DNA of 24,000 nt, taken from positions 859,819-883,818 of the forward strand of contig NZ_FO538765.1 of the NCBI RefSeq assembly GCF_000968135.1. The letters run 5' to 3'. Under the pieces are notes generated by a model. That model saw only the letters and a program-made list of their open reading frames with translations, had not been told where the DNA came from and ran no database searches. This DNA comes from Magnetospira sp. QH-2 (GTDB lineage: Bacteria > Pseudomonadota > Alphaproteobacteria > Rhodospirillales > Magnetospiraceae). Below, piece by piece: positions 7,442 to 23,132 of the stretch (within the stretch, counting starts at the first letter, position 1; the number at the start of each line of letters is the position of its first letter). Made by a program: the position numbers and the translations under genes.

Positions 7442-7458
7442 GTGTTTTTGACAGGCTG

Positions 7459-7704
7459 CTTCTGTAATCGAGTCATTTGAGTCAAGCTGATTTCCAAGCC
7501 GTCGGTTTGAACCTGGGGTATGTGGCGCCCTTTGCTTCTGTCCGCGGTCGACGTCGTCGCCGCATGATGGGGATCAAGGGGGATCGGGTGCAGCAATCTG
7601 AAAAGCGTGGTCTTACGCCACTGCAGCCTGCGCGCTGTCATCCGAGCCCCGCGCGTCGCCACGCGTCCTGGCCGCCCTTCAGGCGATCTCGGTTTTCGTT
7701 GTGT
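7459..7704 (-). ncRNA. Candidate bridge/seek guide RNA in the IS 3' non-coding tail (copy A)
   Basis: Mirror of 22232-22477. It has the same guide-like segments and hairpins (target-loop region about 7596-7630, donor-loop region about 7533-7572). One SNP relative to copy B (7518) lies outside those segments. Confidence 0.45.
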
Positions 7705-8736
7705 TTAGATGGCGGTCTCCTCCTTGCGGTACTGGAAGTCCGTGCCGTCGATCCACATGCGATGCATGATTACGGCGAGACGCCGGGCAACGGCGACCTT
7801 GGCGCGTTTCATCCCGCGCCTTTTGGCGACCGCGAGCCCCCAGTGTTTGAGCCAGGACCAACGGCGGGTTCGAGTGAGAAGTGCATTGGCGGCCTCGAAC
7901 AAAAGCCAACGAACCATGGCATCTCCGCACTTGCTGATGGGGCCGCTTCGGTCCTGCTCTCCCGAGGCGTATCTGCGTGGGACAAGCCCGAAGTGGGCGC
8001 CGACCATGACCGACTTTTGAAACCGTTCCGGCACGTCGAGTCCTGTCCTGAAAGCGAGGGCGGTAACCGGGCCGACGCCGGGAACGGTCATCAGGCGCCG
8101 GCAAACGCTATCATCGCGCGCAGCGGCATGAACCTGCCGGTCGAGCTTGTCGAGTTGTTCGAGCAAGGCTTGGCGCGCAAGCAAGAGCGGCTCGGCGGCT
8201 GCGCTGAGGTGCGGGTTATCAGCCGTCAATTCCCGAACCCGCGCCGCGAAAAGGCGTCCGCGCGCCATACCGACCTTGAGGCCGAAAGCTTTCAATGTTC
8301 CTCGTACCGTATTGGACAACTGACGGACCTGATGAACCAGGGTCTCCCGATGGGTCAGCACCATCCGGAGCTCCTGACTGCGCGCGGTCTTGACGTGGGT
8401 CGCGCGGTACAAACCGGTCCGCATCGCCTGGCTGATCAAGCGGGCGTCGCGACGGTCCGTCTTGACTGGGCTGGCGCTGGCAAAGGCCTTCATTTGCCGG
8501 GTCTCGATACAAATCACAGGGAGGCCCCGACTGGACAGTCCTGCGTACAGCCAAGGCGCCAGAGGGCCAGCTTCCAACCCAATTCGCGCAAAGCCACGCC
8601 CGCTTTCCTCGAGCCAAGTGGCGACCGCCTCGGGTGTGCTTGACACCTTGCCTTCGCGAATGACGGTTCCCTTTGCATCAATCTCACAGATCGAAATGCT
8701 TGCCATCGATACGTCCATTCCAACAAAATACTCCAT
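7705..8736 (-). CDS. IS110-family DEDD transposase/recombinase
   Basis: N-terminal RuvC-like DEDD region (MEYFVGMDVS..., GLEAGP, KTDRRDA). C-terminal Transposase_20-type region (MTVPGVGPVTALAF, PRRYASGEQDRSGPISKCGD). Start taken at the ATG with AGGAG upstream (MEYFVG) rather than the track TTG at 8787. Confidence 0.93.
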   Translation of the reverse strand: MEYFVGMDVSMASISICEIDAKGTVIREGKVSSTPEAVATWLEESGRGFARIGLEAGPLAPWLYAGLSSRGLPVICIETRQMKAFASASPVKTDRRDARLISQAMRTGLYRATHVKTARSQELRMVLTHRETLVHQVRQLSNTVRGTLKAFGLKVGMARGRLFAARVRELTADNPHLSAAAEPLLLARQALLEQLDKLDRQVHAAARDDSVCRRLMTVPGVGPVTALAFRTGLDVPERFQKSVMVGAHFGLVPRRYASGEQDRSGPISKCGDAMVRWLLFEAANALLTRTRRWSWLKHWGLAVAKRRGMKRAKVAVARRLAVIMHRMWIDGTDFQYRKEETAI

Positions 8737-8847
8737 AGCTGGTCTCCTCTGTTCCATGTCCAGGAATTGACCCGGATACTTGATCAAGACCGAGTGTGGA
8801 GACCAGCTGACTGTTTAGGCAATCCCTGACTGCTCGATTACCGCCAT

Positions 8848-9020
8848 CTGAAAAAGTCCGATTTCGAGCCTGTGCCAACACATGCCTCGACAAGCTCAGC
8901 ATGAGGGCCTTTGAATTCTCAACAGGTTAGCCTCATCCTGAGCTTCCTCATCCCGAGCTTGTCGAGGGACGAAGGGCGAGGCGGGCCGTCGGACAACACT
9001 TTTTCAGCAGCCTGCTAAGG
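8848..9020. repeat. MITE/REP-like palindromic repeat element E1
   Basis: 10-bp terminal inverted repeats ctgaaaaagt (8848-8857) and actttttcag (8998-9007), plus a long internal inverted repeat (cgacaagctcag / ctgagcttgtcg). Largely collinear with E2, with scattered substitutions. Relative to E2 it carries a tandem 15-bp duplication (8931-8945 / 8946-8960) and a 7-nt insertion. Confidence 0.85.
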
Positions 9021-20089: not shown

Positions 20090-20465
20090 GACAATCCCCC
20101 GATTGTTTAAAGTTTCCCACAAAACTTAGGTACAGGGCCGGTGCTCGACCAAAAACCTTGATACCTAGCGATCTATTAAGAGCGACTTGAGATGCTCTAT
20201 ATAAGCACCACCTAATTTAGTGATACCTAATATTAATGTCAACGACTTTTTTTCGCCGAGTTCGCCAAGGTGTGTGGAGAAGTTGGAAATATGAGTGTGA
20301 ATCAGGCGGAAATCAAGATTTCCCGGGAGATGTCGTCACGCGTGGGTTGCCTCTAACGGATGAAGCGGATATAAGGCGCGGGCCTTGCGGGGCGTAGAGC
20401 CGAATGGCTCGGTTCCCGGGCCCGGCTTTTAAGAATCGCACATGTTTACCGAAAGGTTTTACGTC

Positions 20466-20888
20466 ATGGCTATTGAGCGCACGCTGTCGATCATCAAACC
20501 CGATGCTACGGCGCGGAATATCACCGGCAAGATCAATGCCGTCTTTGAGGATAATGGCCTGCGGGTCGTGGCTCAGAAGCGGTTGTGGCTGAGCAAGAAG
20601 CAGGCGGAACAGTTCTATGCCGTCCATGCGGAGCGCTCGTTCTTTGGCGAGTTGACCGACTATATGGTCTCTGGGCCCGTCGTGGTTCAGGTGTTGGAAG
20701 GCGAAAGCGCCATCACCAAGAATCGCGAAGTCATGGGCGCCACCAATCCCGCCAATGCCGATGAGGGCACCATCCGCGCCCTGTTCGGGCAGAATGTGCA
20801 GGAAAACTCGGTGCACGGTTCCGACTCGCCGGAAAACGCGGCCATCGAGATCAGCTTCTTCTTTGCCCAGACGGAAATCGTCGGCTAA
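20466..20888 (+). CDS. ndk: Nucleoside diphosphate kinase
   Basis: [14 protein letters not shown]..., with the active-site NSVHGSDS and ~140 aa. Start at ATG 20466 rather than track 20442. Confidence 0.97.
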
Positions 20889-20911
20889 AGCTGAAATCAG
20901 GTATCGAGGAA

Positions 20912-20936
20912 GGGGGCGCTTGCGTCCCCTTTTTTT
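20912..20936 (+). terminator. Rho-independent terminator of ndk
   Basis: Stem gggggcg (20912-20918) pairs with cgtcccc (20923-20929), including one G.U pair. The loop is cttg, followed by a T7 run (20930-20936). Confidence 0.7.
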
Positions 20937-20942
20937 CGTTTA

Positions 20943-21088
20943 ACGGTCTGCTGAAAAAGTCCGATTTCGAGCCTGTGGTGACACATGCTTCGACAAGCTC
21001 AGCATGAGGGCCTTTGAACTTTCAACATGTTAGCCTCACCCTGAGCTTGTCGAAGGGCGAGGCGGGCCGTCGGACAATACTTTTTCAG
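20943..21088. repeat. MITE/REP-like palindromic repeat element E2
   Basis: Same family and orientation as E1. TIRs are ctgaaaaagt (20951-20960) and actttttcag (21079-21088). A perfect 14-bp internal inverted repeat pairs ttcgacaagctcag (20989-21002) with ctgagcttgtcgaa (21041-21054). Confidence 0.85.
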
Positions 21089-21199
21089 ATGGCGGTAATC
21101 GAGCAGTCAGGGATTGCCTAGACAGTCAGCTGGTCTCCACACTCGGTCTTGATCAAGTATCCGGGTCAATTCCTGGACATGGAACAGAGGAGACCAGCT

Positions 21200-22231
21200 A
21201 TGGAGTATTTTGTTGGAATGGACGTATCGATGGCAAGCATTTCGATCTGTGAGATTGATGCAAAGGGAACCGTCATTCGCGAAGGCAAGGTGTCAAGCAC
21301 ACCCGAGGCGGTCGCCACTTGGCTCGAGGAAAGCGGGCGTGGCTTTGCGCGAATTGGGTTGGAAGCTGGCCCTCTGGCGCCTTGGCTGTACGCAGGACTG
21401 TCCAGTCGGGGCCTCCCTGTGATTTGTATCGAGACCCGGCAAATGAAGGCCTTTGCCAGCGCCAGCCCAGTCAAGACGGACCGTCGCGACGCCCGCTTGA
21501 TCAGCCAGGCGATGCGGACCGGTTTGTACCGCGCGACCCACGTCAAGACCGCGCGCAGTCAGGAGCTCCGGATGGTGCTGACCCATCGGGAGACCCTGGT
21601 TCATCAGGTCCGTCAGTTGTCCAATACGGTACGAGGAACATTGAAAGCTTTCGGCCTCAAGGTCGGTATGGCGCGCGGACGCCTTTTCGCGGCGCGGGTT
21701 CGGGAATTGACGGCTGATAACCCGCACCTCAGCGCAGCCGCCGAGCCGCTCTTGCTTGCGCGCCAAGCCTTGCTCGAACAACTCGACAAGCTCGACCGGC
21801 AGGTTCATGCCGCTGCGCGCGATGATAGCGTTTGCCGGCGCCTGATGACCGTTCCCGGCGTCGGCCCGGTTACCGCCCTCGCTTTCAGGACAGGACTCGA
21901 CGTGCCGGAACGGTTTCAAAAGTCGGTCATGGTCGGCGCCCACTTCGGGCTTGTCCCACGCAGATACGCCTCGGGAGAGCAGGACCGAAGCGGCCCCATC
22001 AGCAAGTGCGGAGATGCCATGGTTCGTTGGCTTTTGTTCGAGGCCGCCAATGCACTTCTCACTCGAACCCGCCGTTGGTCCTGGCTCAAACACTGGGGGC
22101 TCGCGGTCGCCAAAAGGCGCGGGATGAAACGCGCCAAGGTAGCCGTTGCCCGGCGTCTCGCCGTAATCATGCATCGCATGTGGATCGACGGCACGGACTT
22201 CCAGTACCGCAAGGAGGAGACCGCCATCTAA
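21200..22231 (+). CDS. IS110-family DEDD transposase/recombinase
   Basis: Protein identical to copy A, with one synonymous difference at 22141. AGGAG SD precedes ATG 21200. Confidence 0.93.
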   Translation: MEYFVGMDVSMASISICEIDAKGTVIREGKVSSTPEAVATWLEESGRGFARIGLEAGPLAPWLYAGLSSRGLPVICIETRQMKAFASASPVKTDRRDARLISQAMRTGLYRATHVKTARSQELRMVLTHRETLVHQVRQLSNTVRGTLKAFGLKVGMARGRLFAARVRELTADNPHLSAAAEPLLLARQALLEQLDKLDRQVHAAARDDSVCRRLMTVPGVGPVTALAFRTGLDVPERFQKSVMVGAHFGLVPRRYASGEQDRSGPISKCGDAMVRWLLFEAANALLTRTRRWSWLKHWGLAVAKRRGMKRAKVAVARRLAVIMHRMWIDGTDFQYRKEETAI

Positions 22232-22477
22232 ACACAACGAAAACCGAGATCGCCTGAAGGGCGGCCAGGACGCGTGGCGACGCGCGGGGCTCGGATGACA
22301 GCGCGCAGGCTGCAGTGGCGTAAGACCACGCTTTTCAGATTGCTGCACCCGATCCCCCTTGATCCCCATCATGCGGCGACGACGTCGACCGCGGACAGAA
22401 GCAAAGGGCGCCACATAACCCAGGTTCAAACCGACGGCTTGGAAATCAGCTTGACTCAAATGACTCGATTACAGAAG
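22232..22477 (+). ncRNA. Candidate bridge/seek guide RNA in the IS 3' non-coding tail (copy B)
   Basis: caggctgc (22306-22313) is the reverse complement of gcagcctg at the right junction (22477-22484). ttttcagat (22332-22340) is identical to the left junction (21082-21090). acagaagca (22395-22403) is identical to the IS right end (22471-22479). ccccatc (22364-22370) matches 6/7 to the reverse complement of the IS left end gatggcg (21088-21094). Each pair of segments flanks a small hairpin. Confidence 0.5.
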
Positions 22478-22484
22478 CAGCCTG

Positions 22485-23132
22485 TTAGGGGGCGGGGTTG
22501 ACCAAGGCGCCGGTCGCACCGGGGCCTTCGATAATCACTTGTTCGTTTTCCACCCGGGCCCGGCCTTCGGCGATCAGCCGCAGAGCCAGAGGATATATCC
22601 GGTGTTCCTGTTCCAGCACACGAGCGCCCAACGCCGATTCGTCGTCATTACCCAGTACCGGCACCGCGGCCTGCACGAGAATCGGCCCGGAATCCATGGC
22701 CGGGCGTACATAATGGACCGTGCAGCCGCTGAGCCGCACCCCCGCGGCCAGGGCGTCCCGATGGGCATGGGCCCCTTTGAACGAGGGCAGCAGGGATGGG
22801 TGGATGTTGATCAACCGGTCATGCCAGCGATTGACGAATCCGTCCGTCAGCAACCGCATGAATCCGGCCAGGCAGACGAATTCCACCCCATGCGCCGTCA
22901 GGGTTTCATGCACCGCTTCTTCGAAAGGCGCGCGTCCGTCATAGGCTTTGTTGTCAACCATGGCGGTGGCCACGCCGGCCTTCGTGGCCCGCTCCAGAGC
23001 GAATGCCCCGGGAACGTTGGACAGAACCAGGGCGATCTCCGCCGGAAAGGCGGGATCGGCGGCGGAATCCAGCAAGGCCTGCAAATTGCTGCCCCGTCCA
23101 GAGACCAGGACTCCAACCTTCAGCCGCGCCAT
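22485..23132 (-). CDS. purN: Phosphoribosylglycinamide formyltransferase
   Basis: [29 protein letters not shown] and GCTVHYV motifs, 215 aa. It overlaps the purM stop, in the classical purMN arrangement. Confidence 0.95.

What the first reader, a model, noticed from the sequence alone, without database searches (positions are those of the whole stretch)
22232..22477. The IS 3' tail has the architecture of a bridge/seek guide RNA, and its apparent guides match this element's own target and ends
**Layout.** The transposase gene is followed by ~245 nt of non-coding IS sequence, against only ~110 nt upstream. That is the IS1111-type layout.

**First guide pair (target).**
- caggctgc (22306-22313) is the reverse complement of gcagcctg at the right IS/flank junction.
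- A small hairpin follows (gtgg 22315-18 / ccac 22326-29).
- Next comes ttttcagat (22332-22340), identical to the left flank/IS junction ttttcag|at (21082-21090).

**Second guide pair (donor).**
- ccccatc (22364-70) matches 6/7 to the reverse complement of the IS left end.
- A hairpin follows (gcgg-cgac 22373-80 / gtcg-a-ccgc 22384-92).
- Next comes acagaagca (22395-22403), identical to the IS right end (22471-79).

**Interpretation.** Two guide pairs, each split by an inner stem-loop, one reading the target and one reading the donor ends, is the organisation reported in 2024 for IS110/IS1111 bridge RNAs (seekRNAs). Three exact 8-9 nt matches within 250 nt are very unlikely by chance.
Basis: partly seen in the sequence, partly recalled or inferred. 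Interest (0 to 1): 0.72.

Follow-up and report, generated by a model that had tools for sequence, protein, structure and literature searches.

The report
Guide RNA of an IS1111-type element
The 245-base tail of this insertion sequence very probably encodes the element's own bridge (seek) RNA, whose short guide segments spell out its insertion site and its own ends; this is an ordinary new example of a mechanism described in 2024.

Summary

**The element.** It is an IS110-family, IS1111-type insertion sequence at 21089-22477, from Magnetospira sp. QH-2. Its transposase is 343 aa. A 9-bp subterminal inverted repeat is present. The non-coding DNA is 111 nt upstream and about 245 nt downstream of the gene.

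**Evidence from 54 relatives (32-68% aa identity).**
- Their tails share one scaffold. A covariance model built without the window hits 22268-22412 at E=2e-16.
- 25 of 28 scaffold base pairs show compensatory changes.
- The four guide segments vary between relatives and track each element's own flanks and ends. Permutation tests gave 0-1 of 100,000.

**Evidence inside the window.**
- A second copy lies at 7459-8847 on the minus strand, in the same 18-bp site.
- Two unoccupied versions of that site exist, ACTTTTTCAGCAGCCTGC and ACTTTTTCAGCAGACCGT.
- These fix the target as ACTTTTTC-AG-CAGCCTGT with core AG. The site is the terminal inverted repeat of a small palindromic repeat element.

**Logic.** Read in the RNA's own frame, the layout mirrors IS621: CT core, left guide then right guide, and 2-nt handshake extensions.

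**Gaps.** Transcription and activity were not tested. No Rfam family matched.

**Verdict.** New member of a known kind; modest interest.

The parts
21079..21086 (+). Left target half (LT), ACTTTTTC
   Evidence: It is shared by both IS copies, and the flanks diverge beyond it. It is present in both empty sites.
21087..21088 (+). Core dinucleotide AG at the left junction. A second copy of the core lies at 22476-77.
   Evidence: The empty sites read ...TTTTTC-AG-CAG.... In relatives the core changes to AC at both junctions and in both same-sense guides (L015-17, L028).
21089..22477 (+). IS copy 1, 1389 bp counting one core dinucleotide
   Evidence: Supported by the two-copy comparison, the empty sites and the conserved AGATGG / GAAG ends in relatives.
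21095..21103 (+). Left subterminal inverted repeat, GTAATCGAG
   Evidence: pair I25: 9 nt, 100% complementary to 22464-72.
21200..22231 (+). Transposase gene, 343 aa; DEDD/RuvC-like N-terminal domain plus Transposase_20 domain
   Evidence: Pfam PF01548 at 2e-22 and PF02371 at 6e-19. NCBIfam NF033542 'IS110 family RNA-guided transposase' at 249 bits against a cut-off of 140. PDB hits to IS621 at 9e-11 and ISCro4 at 7e-14. The GLVPRRYASG motif is visible in the translation.
22268..22412 (+). Bridge/seek RNA scaffold, as matched by the covariance model
   Evidence: Model R1 was built from 12 relatives without the window and scores 61 bits, E=2e-16.
22271..22284 (+). Hairpin P1, CGCGT-GGCG-ACGCG
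   Evidence: Helix 1 covaries.
22286..22303 (+). Target-binding loop, 5' strand of the outer stem. It pairs with 22341-22357.
   Evidence: The window forms 14 of 15 model pairs. Helices 2 and 3 covary.
22306..22313 (+). Guide 1, CAGGCTGC. It is complementary to the top strand of the core G plus the right target (GCAGCCTG, 22477-84). In the tnp frame this is the right target guide.
   Evidence: Across 15 lineages the in-register run against the cognate right flank averages 6.9 nt versus 2.2 nt for non-cognate flanks, with 0 of 100,000 permutations reaching it.
22315..22329 (+). Inner hairpin of the target-binding loop, GTGG-CGTAAGA-CCAC
   Evidence: In relatives, 34 of 37 distinct inner segments fold as a single hairpin despite differing in sequence and length.
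22332..22340 (+). Guide 2, TTTTCAG+AT. It has the same sense as the left target plus core, then 2 nt equal to the IS left end (handshake-like extension).
   Evidence: Cognate identity is 4.27 of 6 versus 2.97, with 0 of 100,000 permutations. The AGAT is conserved in relatives.
22341..22357 (+). Target-binding loop, 3' strand of the outer stem
22364..22370 (+). Guide 3, CCCCATC. It is complementary to the core G plus the IS left end (GATGGcGG), a discontiguous match.
   Evidence: Cognate identity is 6.08 of 8 versus 4.70, with 1 of 100,000 permutations.
22372..22393 (+). Inner stem-loop of the donor-binding region, TGCGGCGAC-GAC-GTCGaCCGCG
   Evidence: Helix 4 is 94.7% paired, and 6 of 8 pairs show compensatory changes. 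RNAalifold also finds it on the MAFFT alignment.
22395..22403 (+). Guide 4, ACAGA-AG+CA. It has the same sense as the IS right end plus core, then 2 nt equal to the right target (handshake-like extension).
   Evidence: Cognate identity is 6.85 of 7 versus 5.71, with 0 of 100,000 permutations. Four LD variants (ACAGA, AGAGA, AGCGA, AAAGA) each match their own guide.
22450..22455 (+). TTGACT, a candidate -35 box of a promoter completed only in the circular form (TTGACT-18 nt-GAAGAT across the junction)
   Evidence: This is inference. (c)TTGAC sits at a similar distance from the right end in many relatives. No sigma-70 site was found on the + strand inside the IS. Siddiquee et al. (PMC11187229) report only a junction promoter for ISEc11.
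22464..22472 (+). Right subterminal inverted repeat, CTCGATTAC
   Evidence: pair I25.
22478..22485 (+). Right target half (RT), CAGCCTGT
   Evidence: Shared by both copies and present in the empty sites.
7459..8847 (-). IS copy 2, with 4 mismatches to copy 1 and identical guides. Its RNA scaffold is at 7524-7668.
8998..9015 (+). Unoccupied target site, ACTTTTTCAGCAGCCTGC (1 mismatch). It is the other terminal repeat of the palindromic element that carries copy 2.
   Evidence: (0 matches expected by chance).
20943..20960 (-). Unoccupied target-like site, ACTTTTTCAGCAGACCGT (2 mismatches). It is the other terminal repeat of the palindromic element that carries copy 1.

Best explanation
**What it is.** The tail of this IS1111-type element encodes a bridge RNA, also called a seekRNA.

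**Architecture.** A 5' hairpin is followed by a long stem whose internal loop is split by a small hairpin. That loop carries two target guides.
- Guide 1 pairs with one strand of the right half of the target.
- Guide 2 pairs with the other strand of the left half plus the core.

A second region is split by another stem-loop and carries two donor guides.
- Guide 3 pairs with the IS left end.
- Guide 4 pairs with the IS right end plus the core.

**Mechanism (inferred).**
- The DEDD transposase, bound to this RNA, brings together the joined ends of the excised circle (ACAGA-AG-ATGGCGG) and the chromosomal site ACTTTTTC-AG-CAGCCTGT. It exchanges strands at the AG core.
- The 2-nt extensions of guides 2 and 4 match the recombinant junctions, not the substrates. 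This is what the handshake guides of IS621 do.
- The RNA is probably made as the 3' part of the transposase transcript, from a promoter assembled at the circle junction, and then trimmed.

**Shown here.** The sequence matches, the conserved covarying scaffold, guide/DNA covariation across relatives, the target site and the core.

**Not shown.** Transcription, processing, protein binding and strand order.
For: **Transposase and IS type**
- The protein belongs to the IS110 RNA-guided transposase family.
- IS1111-type traits are present: a 9-bp subterminal inverted repeat, the long non-coding region downstream and the GL-P----SG motif.

**Scaffold**
- The tail scaffold is conserved in 47 of 54 related loci. 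The model excluded the window and hits it at E=2e-16.
- 87.4% of cells are paired, versus 36-46% when the pairing partner is slid.
- 25 of 28 pairs have compensatory changes, and 0 of 500 shuffles reach the observed score.
- RNAalifold recovers the same helices.

**Guides covary with their own DNA**
- Guide 1: run of 6.9 nt versus 2.2 nt.
- Guide 2: 4.27 of 6 versus 2.97.
- Guide 4: 6.85 of 7 versus 5.71.
- Guide 3: 6.08 of 8 versus 4.70.
- Permutations reaching the observed values: 0, 0, 0 and 1 of 100,000.

**Core**
- In L015-17 and L028 the core switches to AC at both junctions and in guides 2 and 4. L037 shows AC at its right junction and in both guides; its left end was not reliably located.

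**Target**
- Two copies sit in the same 18-bp site, and two empty sites exist.

**Published precedent**
- Durrant et al. predicted bridge RNAs in the right end of 93% of IS1111 elements (PMC11208160).
- Siddiquee et al. found seekRNAs from the 3' non-coding region with the guide order reversed relative to IS110 (PMC11187229).
Against: - There is no evidence of a transcript, and no internal promoter was found.
- Single-sequence folding energy is no better than shuffles, z=0.05.
- Rfam 15 gave no hit, and the published bridge-RNA models could not be run.
- No conserved helix closing the donor-binding region was found.
- Guide 1 and guide 3 do not pair with the A of the core in the window.
- Left-target matches are short and imperfect in several relatives, for example the L002 and L021 groups.
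- The covariation alignment was fitted to the model's structure, which biases pair counts upward.
Confidence: 0.85

Rival explanations
1. Only the first half (22268-22357) acts as a guide RNA, a short seekRNA that selects the target. The IS ends would be recognised by the protein through the subterminal inverted repeats. The similarity of segments 3 and 4 to the ends would then have another cause.
For: - Siddiquee et al. found a predominant 82-96 nt RNA carrying the two target matches, and they stress subterminal repeats for end recognition.
- No outer helix closing the donor region was found here.
- Guide 3 matches imperfectly.
Against: - Segments 3 and 4 covary with the left and right ends across lineages, with 1 and 0 of 100,000 permutations.
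- Segment 4 follows the core change to AC.
- The stem-loop between them is the best-conserved helix, 94.7% paired.
- The 2-nt extensions match the recombinant junctions.
Confidence: 0.1
2. The internal copies of end and flank sequence work as DNA, not RNA. They would be extra transposase-binding sites or relics of nested or abortive insertions.
For: - Guide 4 DNA is a direct repeat of the right end.
- In L007, L008 and L010 the stretch from that repeat to the right end is tandemly duplicated, so the DNA can act as a recombination partner.
Against: - DNA relics would not keep a base-paired scaffold with compensatory changes.
- They would not place one guide per strand in a fixed register around hairpins in about 40 diverged elements.
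- The family's RNA-guided mechanism is experimentally established (PMC11208160, PMC11187229).
Confidence: 0.03
3. The matches are coincidental in a GC-rich 3' untranslated region.
For: Each single match has a 1-2% chance. The folding z-score is about 0.
Against: All three matches together occurred in 0 of 20,000 shuffles. The same pattern recurs in relatives with different sequences.
Confidence: 0.01

Closest known systems
IS1111-group bridge RNAs / seekRNAs (ISEc11, ISPa11, ISKpn4, ISPst6 in Siddiquee et al. 2024, PMC11187229; ISPa11, ISAzs32, ISHne5 and others in Durrant et al. 2024, PMC11208160)
   Same: - The RNA region lies in the long non-coding stretch 3' of the transposase gene.
- Subterminal inverted repeats are present.
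- Two short segments match opposite strands of the target around the insertion point.
- The target is a repeated palindromic sequence. ISPa11 targets REP, and IS4321/IS5075 target transposon terminal repeats.
- No internal promoter is apparent.
   Different: - This is a different lineage. The nearest protein outside Magnetospira sp. QH-2 is 64% identical.
- Its target, ACTTTTTC-AG-CAGCCTGT, is its own.
- No experimental data exist for it.
- I could not compare its fold directly with the published figures.
IS621 bridge RNA (IS110 group; Durrant et al. 2024, PMC11208160; Hiraizumi et al. 2024, PMC11208158)
   Same: - There are two guide-bearing regions, each split by an inner stem-loop.
- One guide per DNA strand overlaps a 2-nt core.
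- The match to the IS end that follows the core at the circle junction is discontiguous.
- 2-nt extensions match the non-cognate partner, like handshake guides.
- Read in the RNA's own frame, the core is CT. The order is same-sense guide first, then complementary guide plus extension, exactly as in IS621.
- The transposases are homologous (E=9e-11).
   Different: - The RNA lies downstream of the transposase gene, near the right end, rather than upstream in the left end.
- In the transposase's orientation the core reads AG and the guide order appears reversed.
- The subterminal repeat is 9 bp here, versus 2-3 bp in IS621.
- The donor region has no evident closing helix.

Membership tests
IS110 family, IS1111 group | DEDD (RuvC-like) transposase with a C-terminal Transposase_20 domain | tested here: met
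   PF01548 at 2e-22 and PF02371 at 6e-19. NF033542 at 249 bits against a cut-off of 140.
IS110 family, IS1111 group | Subterminal inverted repeats of 7-17 bp | tested here: met
   GTAATCGAG at 21095-103 pairs with CTCGATTAC at 22464-72, 9 of 9. Relatives have up to about 17 bp.
IS110 family, IS1111 group | The longer non-coding region lies downstream of tnp | tested here: met
   About 245 nt downstream versus 111 nt upstream.
IS110 family, IS1111 group | Transposase of 330-350 aa with a GL-P----S(t)G motif | tested here: met
   The protein is 343 aa, and FGLVPRRYASG appears in the translation. The criterion comes from PMC11187229.
IS110 family, IS1111 group | Site-specific insertion without a target duplication beyond the shared core | tested here: met
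   Two copies sit in the same 18-bp site. The empty sites read LT-AG-RT.
IS110 family, IS1111 group | Circular intermediate with a junction promoter | not testable with these tools
   Only a candidate TTGACT-18-GAAGAT across the inferred junction was seen. This is inference.
Bridge RNA / seekRNA | A conserved, covarying secondary structure in the non-coding end | tested here: met
   25 of 28 pairs show compensatory changes. 87% of cells are paired, versus 36-46% when slid. RNAalifold agrees.
Bridge RNA / seekRNA | A target-binding internal loop with two guides, one per target strand, overlapping at the core | tested here: met
   Guide 1 is the reverse complement of G+CAGCCTG. Guide 2 equals TTTTC+AG. 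Both lie in the internal loop of the predicted stem.
Bridge RNA / seekRNA | Guide-target covariation across orthologues | tested here: met
   0 of 100,000 permutations for both target guides.
Bridge RNA / seekRNA | A donor-binding loop whose guides match the joined IS ends | tested here: met
   Guides 3 and 4 match the ends and covary with them. The loop's outer closure was not resolved.
Bridge RNA / seekRNA | Match to a curated or published covariance model | tested here: inconclusive
   Rfam 15 gave no relevant hit. The published IS110/IS1111 models were not available. A model built here from relatives does match.
Bridge RNA / seekRNA | The RNA is transcribed, binds the transposase and is required and reprogrammable for transposition | not testable with these tools
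   No expression or biochemical data are available.

The most novel reading that the evidence does not exclude
Two linked readings are not excluded by the evidence.

- **Same logic as IS621 in the RNA frame.** This IS1111-type RNA would use the same scheme as IS621: CT core, same-sense guide first, then complementary guide plus handshake. The two groups would then differ only in which strand the transposase-RNA module is read from, not in recombination chemistry.
- **Guide 4 DNA as a half-site.** The DNA encoding guide 4 (right end + core + first bases of the target) would itself be a usable recombination half-site. That would let the element recombine with its own tail, as the 79-bp tandem duplication in L007, L008 and L010 suggests.
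Probability: 0.3. Interest if true: 0.4.

Novelty: new member of a known kind. Interest (0 to 1): 0.3.

Why it matters
- It adds a well-delimited natural example to the bridge-RNA systems: guide RNA, 18-bp target, core, two occupied sites and two empty sites, all within one 24-kb window.
- It comes from a lineage only about 60% identical to its nearest sequenced relatives.
- The set of about 40 related tails with their flanks gives a ready covariation data set for the IS1111-type scaffold, which has been studied less than IS621.
- It does not change the current picture of how these elements work.

Tried and rejected
- **Rfam 15 scan of 20900-22700.** Only spurious weak hits appeared, including mir-532 on the flanking palindrome.
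- **Single-sequence folding.** The z-score was 0.05, uninformative in this GC-rich RNA.
- **RNAalifold on a plain MAFFT alignment.** It found only 4 pairs because the stems were misaligned. I replaced it with a covariance-model alignment.
- **Alignment-free longest-match test for the left flank.** It had no power (5.6 versus 5.2). I replaced it with an in-register test.
- **Other genomic copies of the IS.** Three look-ups found nothing on record. The one genome-collection scan did not contain this genome.
- **Plasmid collection search.** Only distant transposase similarity turned up.
- **Core of CAG.** Rejected, because the empty sites read CAGCAG.
- **Internal promoter for the RNA.** None was found on the + strand.
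- **Helix closing the donor region.** None was convincing.

Full report
**1. What is in the sequence**

The region holds a 343-aa ORF at 21200-22231.
- It matches Pfam DEDD_Tnp_IS110 and Transposase_20.
- It matches NCBIfam NF033542, 'IS110 family RNA-guided transposase', at 249 bits against a cut-off of 140.
- By sequence it is related to the two bridge recombinases with solved structures: ISCro4 at E=7e-14 and IS621 at E=9e-11.

A perfect 9-bp subterminal inverted repeat lies at 21095-103 and 22464-72.

The non-coding DNA is 111 nt upstream and about 245 nt downstream of the gene.

In 20,000 dinucleotide-preserving shuffles of the tail, the three exact matches were reached in 0.8%, 2.4% and 1.0% of shuffles singly. 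They were never reached together.

**2. Boundaries, target and core**

A covariance model built from relatives found a second hit in the window, at 7524-7668 on the minus strand. This is a second IS copy.
- The two copies differ at 4 positions.
- They are identical from 21079 to 22485. That span is the IS plus ACTTTTTCAG on the left and CAGCCTGT on the right.
- Beyond those points the flanks diverge.

Searching for the reconstructed site ACTTTTTCAGCAGCCTGT found two unoccupied versions.

| Coordinates | Strand | Sequence | Mismatches |
|---|---|---|---|
| 8998-9015 | + | ACTTTTTCAGCAGCCTGC | 1 |
| 20943-20960 | - | ACTTTTTCAGCAGACCGT | 2 |

None were expected by chance.

Each empty site is the opposite terminal inverted repeat of the roughly 150-bp palindromic repeat element that carries an IS copy at its other end.

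The empty sites read CAGCAG. The shared core is therefore AG, at 21087-88 and 22476-77, not CAG.
- The target is ACTTTTTC-AG-CAGCCTGT.
- The IS is 21089-22477, which is 1389 bp counting one core.
- The inferred circle junction is ACAGA-AG-ATGGCGG.

**3. Relatives**

One scan of representative genomes returned 54 loci encoding transposases 32-68% identical. Almost all come from alphaproteobacterial assemblies.

Their 3' tails align with the window's tail. Conserved blocks alternate with variable blocks at the positions of the four segments.

The window itself comes from Magnetospira sp. QH-2.
- The protein is 100% identical to WP_046021950.
- The 4.02-Mb chromosome carries at least 11 annotated copies.
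- The next relative is 64% identical.

**4. Structure**

I built a covariance model from 12 relatives, with the window excluded. It has 161 positions and 28 pairs, covering a 5' hairpin, the two-part outer stem of the first loop, and the stem-loop of the second region.

The model matched 47 of the 54 loci, and both window copies at 61 bits, E=2e-16.

| Measure (40 distinct sequences) | Observed | Control |
|---|---|---|
| Cells forming standard pairs | 87.4% | 36-46% with the 3' partner slid 1-3 columns |
| Pairs with compensatory changes | 25 of 28 | – |
| Covariation score | 0.552 | 0.06-0.10 |
| Shuffles reaching the observed value | 0 of 500 | – |

- That alignment is fitted to the structure, which inflates the counts. 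The gap to the slid controls is nevertheless large.
- RNAalifold on the same alignment recovers the same helices.
- RNAalifold had already found the second stem on a plain MAFFT alignment.
- The window forms 14 of 15 pairs of the outer stem.
- The small hairpin between guides 1 and 2 varies in length and sequence. It folds as a single hairpin in 34 of 37 distinct relatives.
- Single-sequence folding energy is uninformative, z=0.05.

**5. The guides track their own DNA**

With the model alignment fixing the register, I compared each guide with its own element's junctions and with those of other lineages.

| Guide | Compared with | Cognate | Non-cognate | Permutations reaching observed |
|---|---|---|---|---|
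| 1 (reverse complement) | Right flank | Run of 6.9 nt | 2.2 nt | 0 of 100,000 |
| 2 | Left flank | 4.27 of 6 | 2.97 | 0 of 100,000 |
| 4 | Right end + core | 6.85 of 7 | 5.71 | 0 of 100,000 |
| 3 (reverse complement) | Left end | 6.08 of 8 | 4.70 | 1 of 100,000 |

Examples for guide 1 against the right flank:

| Locus | Guide 1 (reverse complement) | Right flank |
|---|---|---|
| L005 | AGACCGTTGGA | AGACCGTTGGA |
| L014 | GGACCCATTG | GGACCCATTG |
| L024 | ATTGTTCATA | ATTGTTCATA |
| L027 | GCAAGATAA | GCAAGATAA |
| L026 | GCAAGATGA | GCAAGATTA |

- The core also covaries. In L015-17 and L028 it is AC at both junctions and in guides 2 and 4. L037 shows AC at its right junction and in both guides, but its left end was not reliably located.

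**6. How it most likely works**

Durrant et al. describe the IS621 arrangement.
[quoted passage not shown] - Both overlap the core.
- An analogous pair reads the donor.

Hiraizumi et al. describe 2-nt handshake guides that pair with the non-cognate partner after strand exchange.

In this window:
- Guide 2 is TTTTC-AG-AT. That is left target, core, then the first 2 nt of the IS left end.
- Guide 4 is ACAGA-AG-CA. That is right end, core, then the first 2 nt of the right target.
- Both extensions match the recombinant junctions rather than the substrates.

If the element is read on the strand where the core is CT:
- Guide 1 becomes the same-sense left guide.
- Guide 2 becomes the complementary right guide plus handshake.
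- Guides 3 and 4 behave likewise.
- The order is then the same as in IS621.

In the transposase's orientation the order looks reversed, as Siddiquee et al. reported for IS1111 versus IS110 elements. This mirror reading is my inference from the sequences.

Guide 3 matches the left end discontiguously: GATGGGG against GATGGcGG. Durrant et al. report a discontiguous match for the corresponding IS621 guide.

No sigma-70 promoter lies on the sense strand inside the IS. Siddiquee et al. found only the junction promoter in ISEc11, and they found two RNA species of about 82 and 154 nt. Here a conserved cTTGAC at 22449-55, followed 18 nt later by GAAGAT across the junction, could play that role. This is inferred, not shown.

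**7. Comparison with what is known**

Durrant et al. predicted bridge RNAs in the right end of 93% of IS1111 elements. They also noted that the donor-binding nucleotides often sit in a multi-loop rather than a simple internal loop. That fits my failure to find a closing helix for the second region.

Targets in repeated palindromic DNA are typical of this group.

The element meets every sequence-level criterion I could test for the IS1111 group and for a bridge/seek RNA. Three things are missing:
- a match to a curated model (Rfam 15 had none; the published models were not available);
- any transcript evidence;
- any activity evidence.

**8. Verdict**

This is a new, well-delimited member of a known kind. 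Its interest is modest: a specialist would expect it.

Noticed in passing
window 7451-8857 (- strand): A second copy of the same IS lies here, with its target halves. It has 4 mismatches to copy 1 over 1407 nt and identical guide segments. It is inverted relative to copy 1, about 12 kb away.
   Followed up: yes
window 20941-21088 plus 22478-22486; and 8848-9017: A palindromic repeat element of about 150-170 bp, MITE- or REP-like, has terminal inverted repeats ACAGGCTGCTGAAAAAGT...ACTTTTTCAGCAGCCTGT that are the IS target. Each element has one end occupied and one end empty. Its central hairpin gave a spurious Rfam mir-532 hit (20985-21058, 23 bits against a cut-off of 75).
   Followed up: partly
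window 21128-21138 and 21189-21199: A perfect 11-bp inverted repeat (AGCTGGTCTCC / GGAGACCAGCT) in the 5' leader has a second arm that covers the GGAG just before the ATG. A similar pairing seems to be present in relatives (for example L001 CTGTTC/GAACAG) in the upstream alignment. It may sequester the ribosome-binding site.
   Followed up: no
L007, L008, L010: 2736-2900: The 79-bp stretch from the guide-4 DNA (AGCGAAG|AATGAAGCC...) to the right end is tandemly duplicated. The proper right target AATGTTGG follows only the second right end. The three copies sit in different left flanks, so the duplicated variant transposes. This suggests recombination between the right end and the identical guide-4 DNA.
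   Followed up: partly
L015-L017, L028, L037: These relatives use AC instead of AG as the core, with matching changes in guides 2 and 4. AC is seen at both junctions in L015-17 and L028; in L037 only the right junction could be read.
   Followed up: yes
L003 about 2765 onward; L018 about 2760 onward: The tails are truncated or rearranged shortly after guide 4, with no right end found. These are probably decayed copies.
   Followed up: no
L030: 1278-1410: A second, weaker hit of the RNA model (23.5 bits) lies inside the stretch matched to the transposase. It resembles the L043/L048 type and is possibly a remnant of another element.
   Followed up: no
window 22485-23132 (- strand): The IS sits directly against the end of a 215-aa ORF whose stop codon overlaps the last base of the right target half. 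The ORF has an HPSLLP-type motif suggestive of PurN; this comes from memory and was not tested. On the other side, a 148-aa ORF at 20442-20888 ends about 55 nt before the repeat element.
   Followed up: no
L002, L004, L006, L009, L040, L041: In this lineage the right target (AATGTTGG) is constant, but the left flanks differ and match guide 2 poorly (3-4 of 6). This hints that the left half contributes less to site choice there.
   Followed up: no
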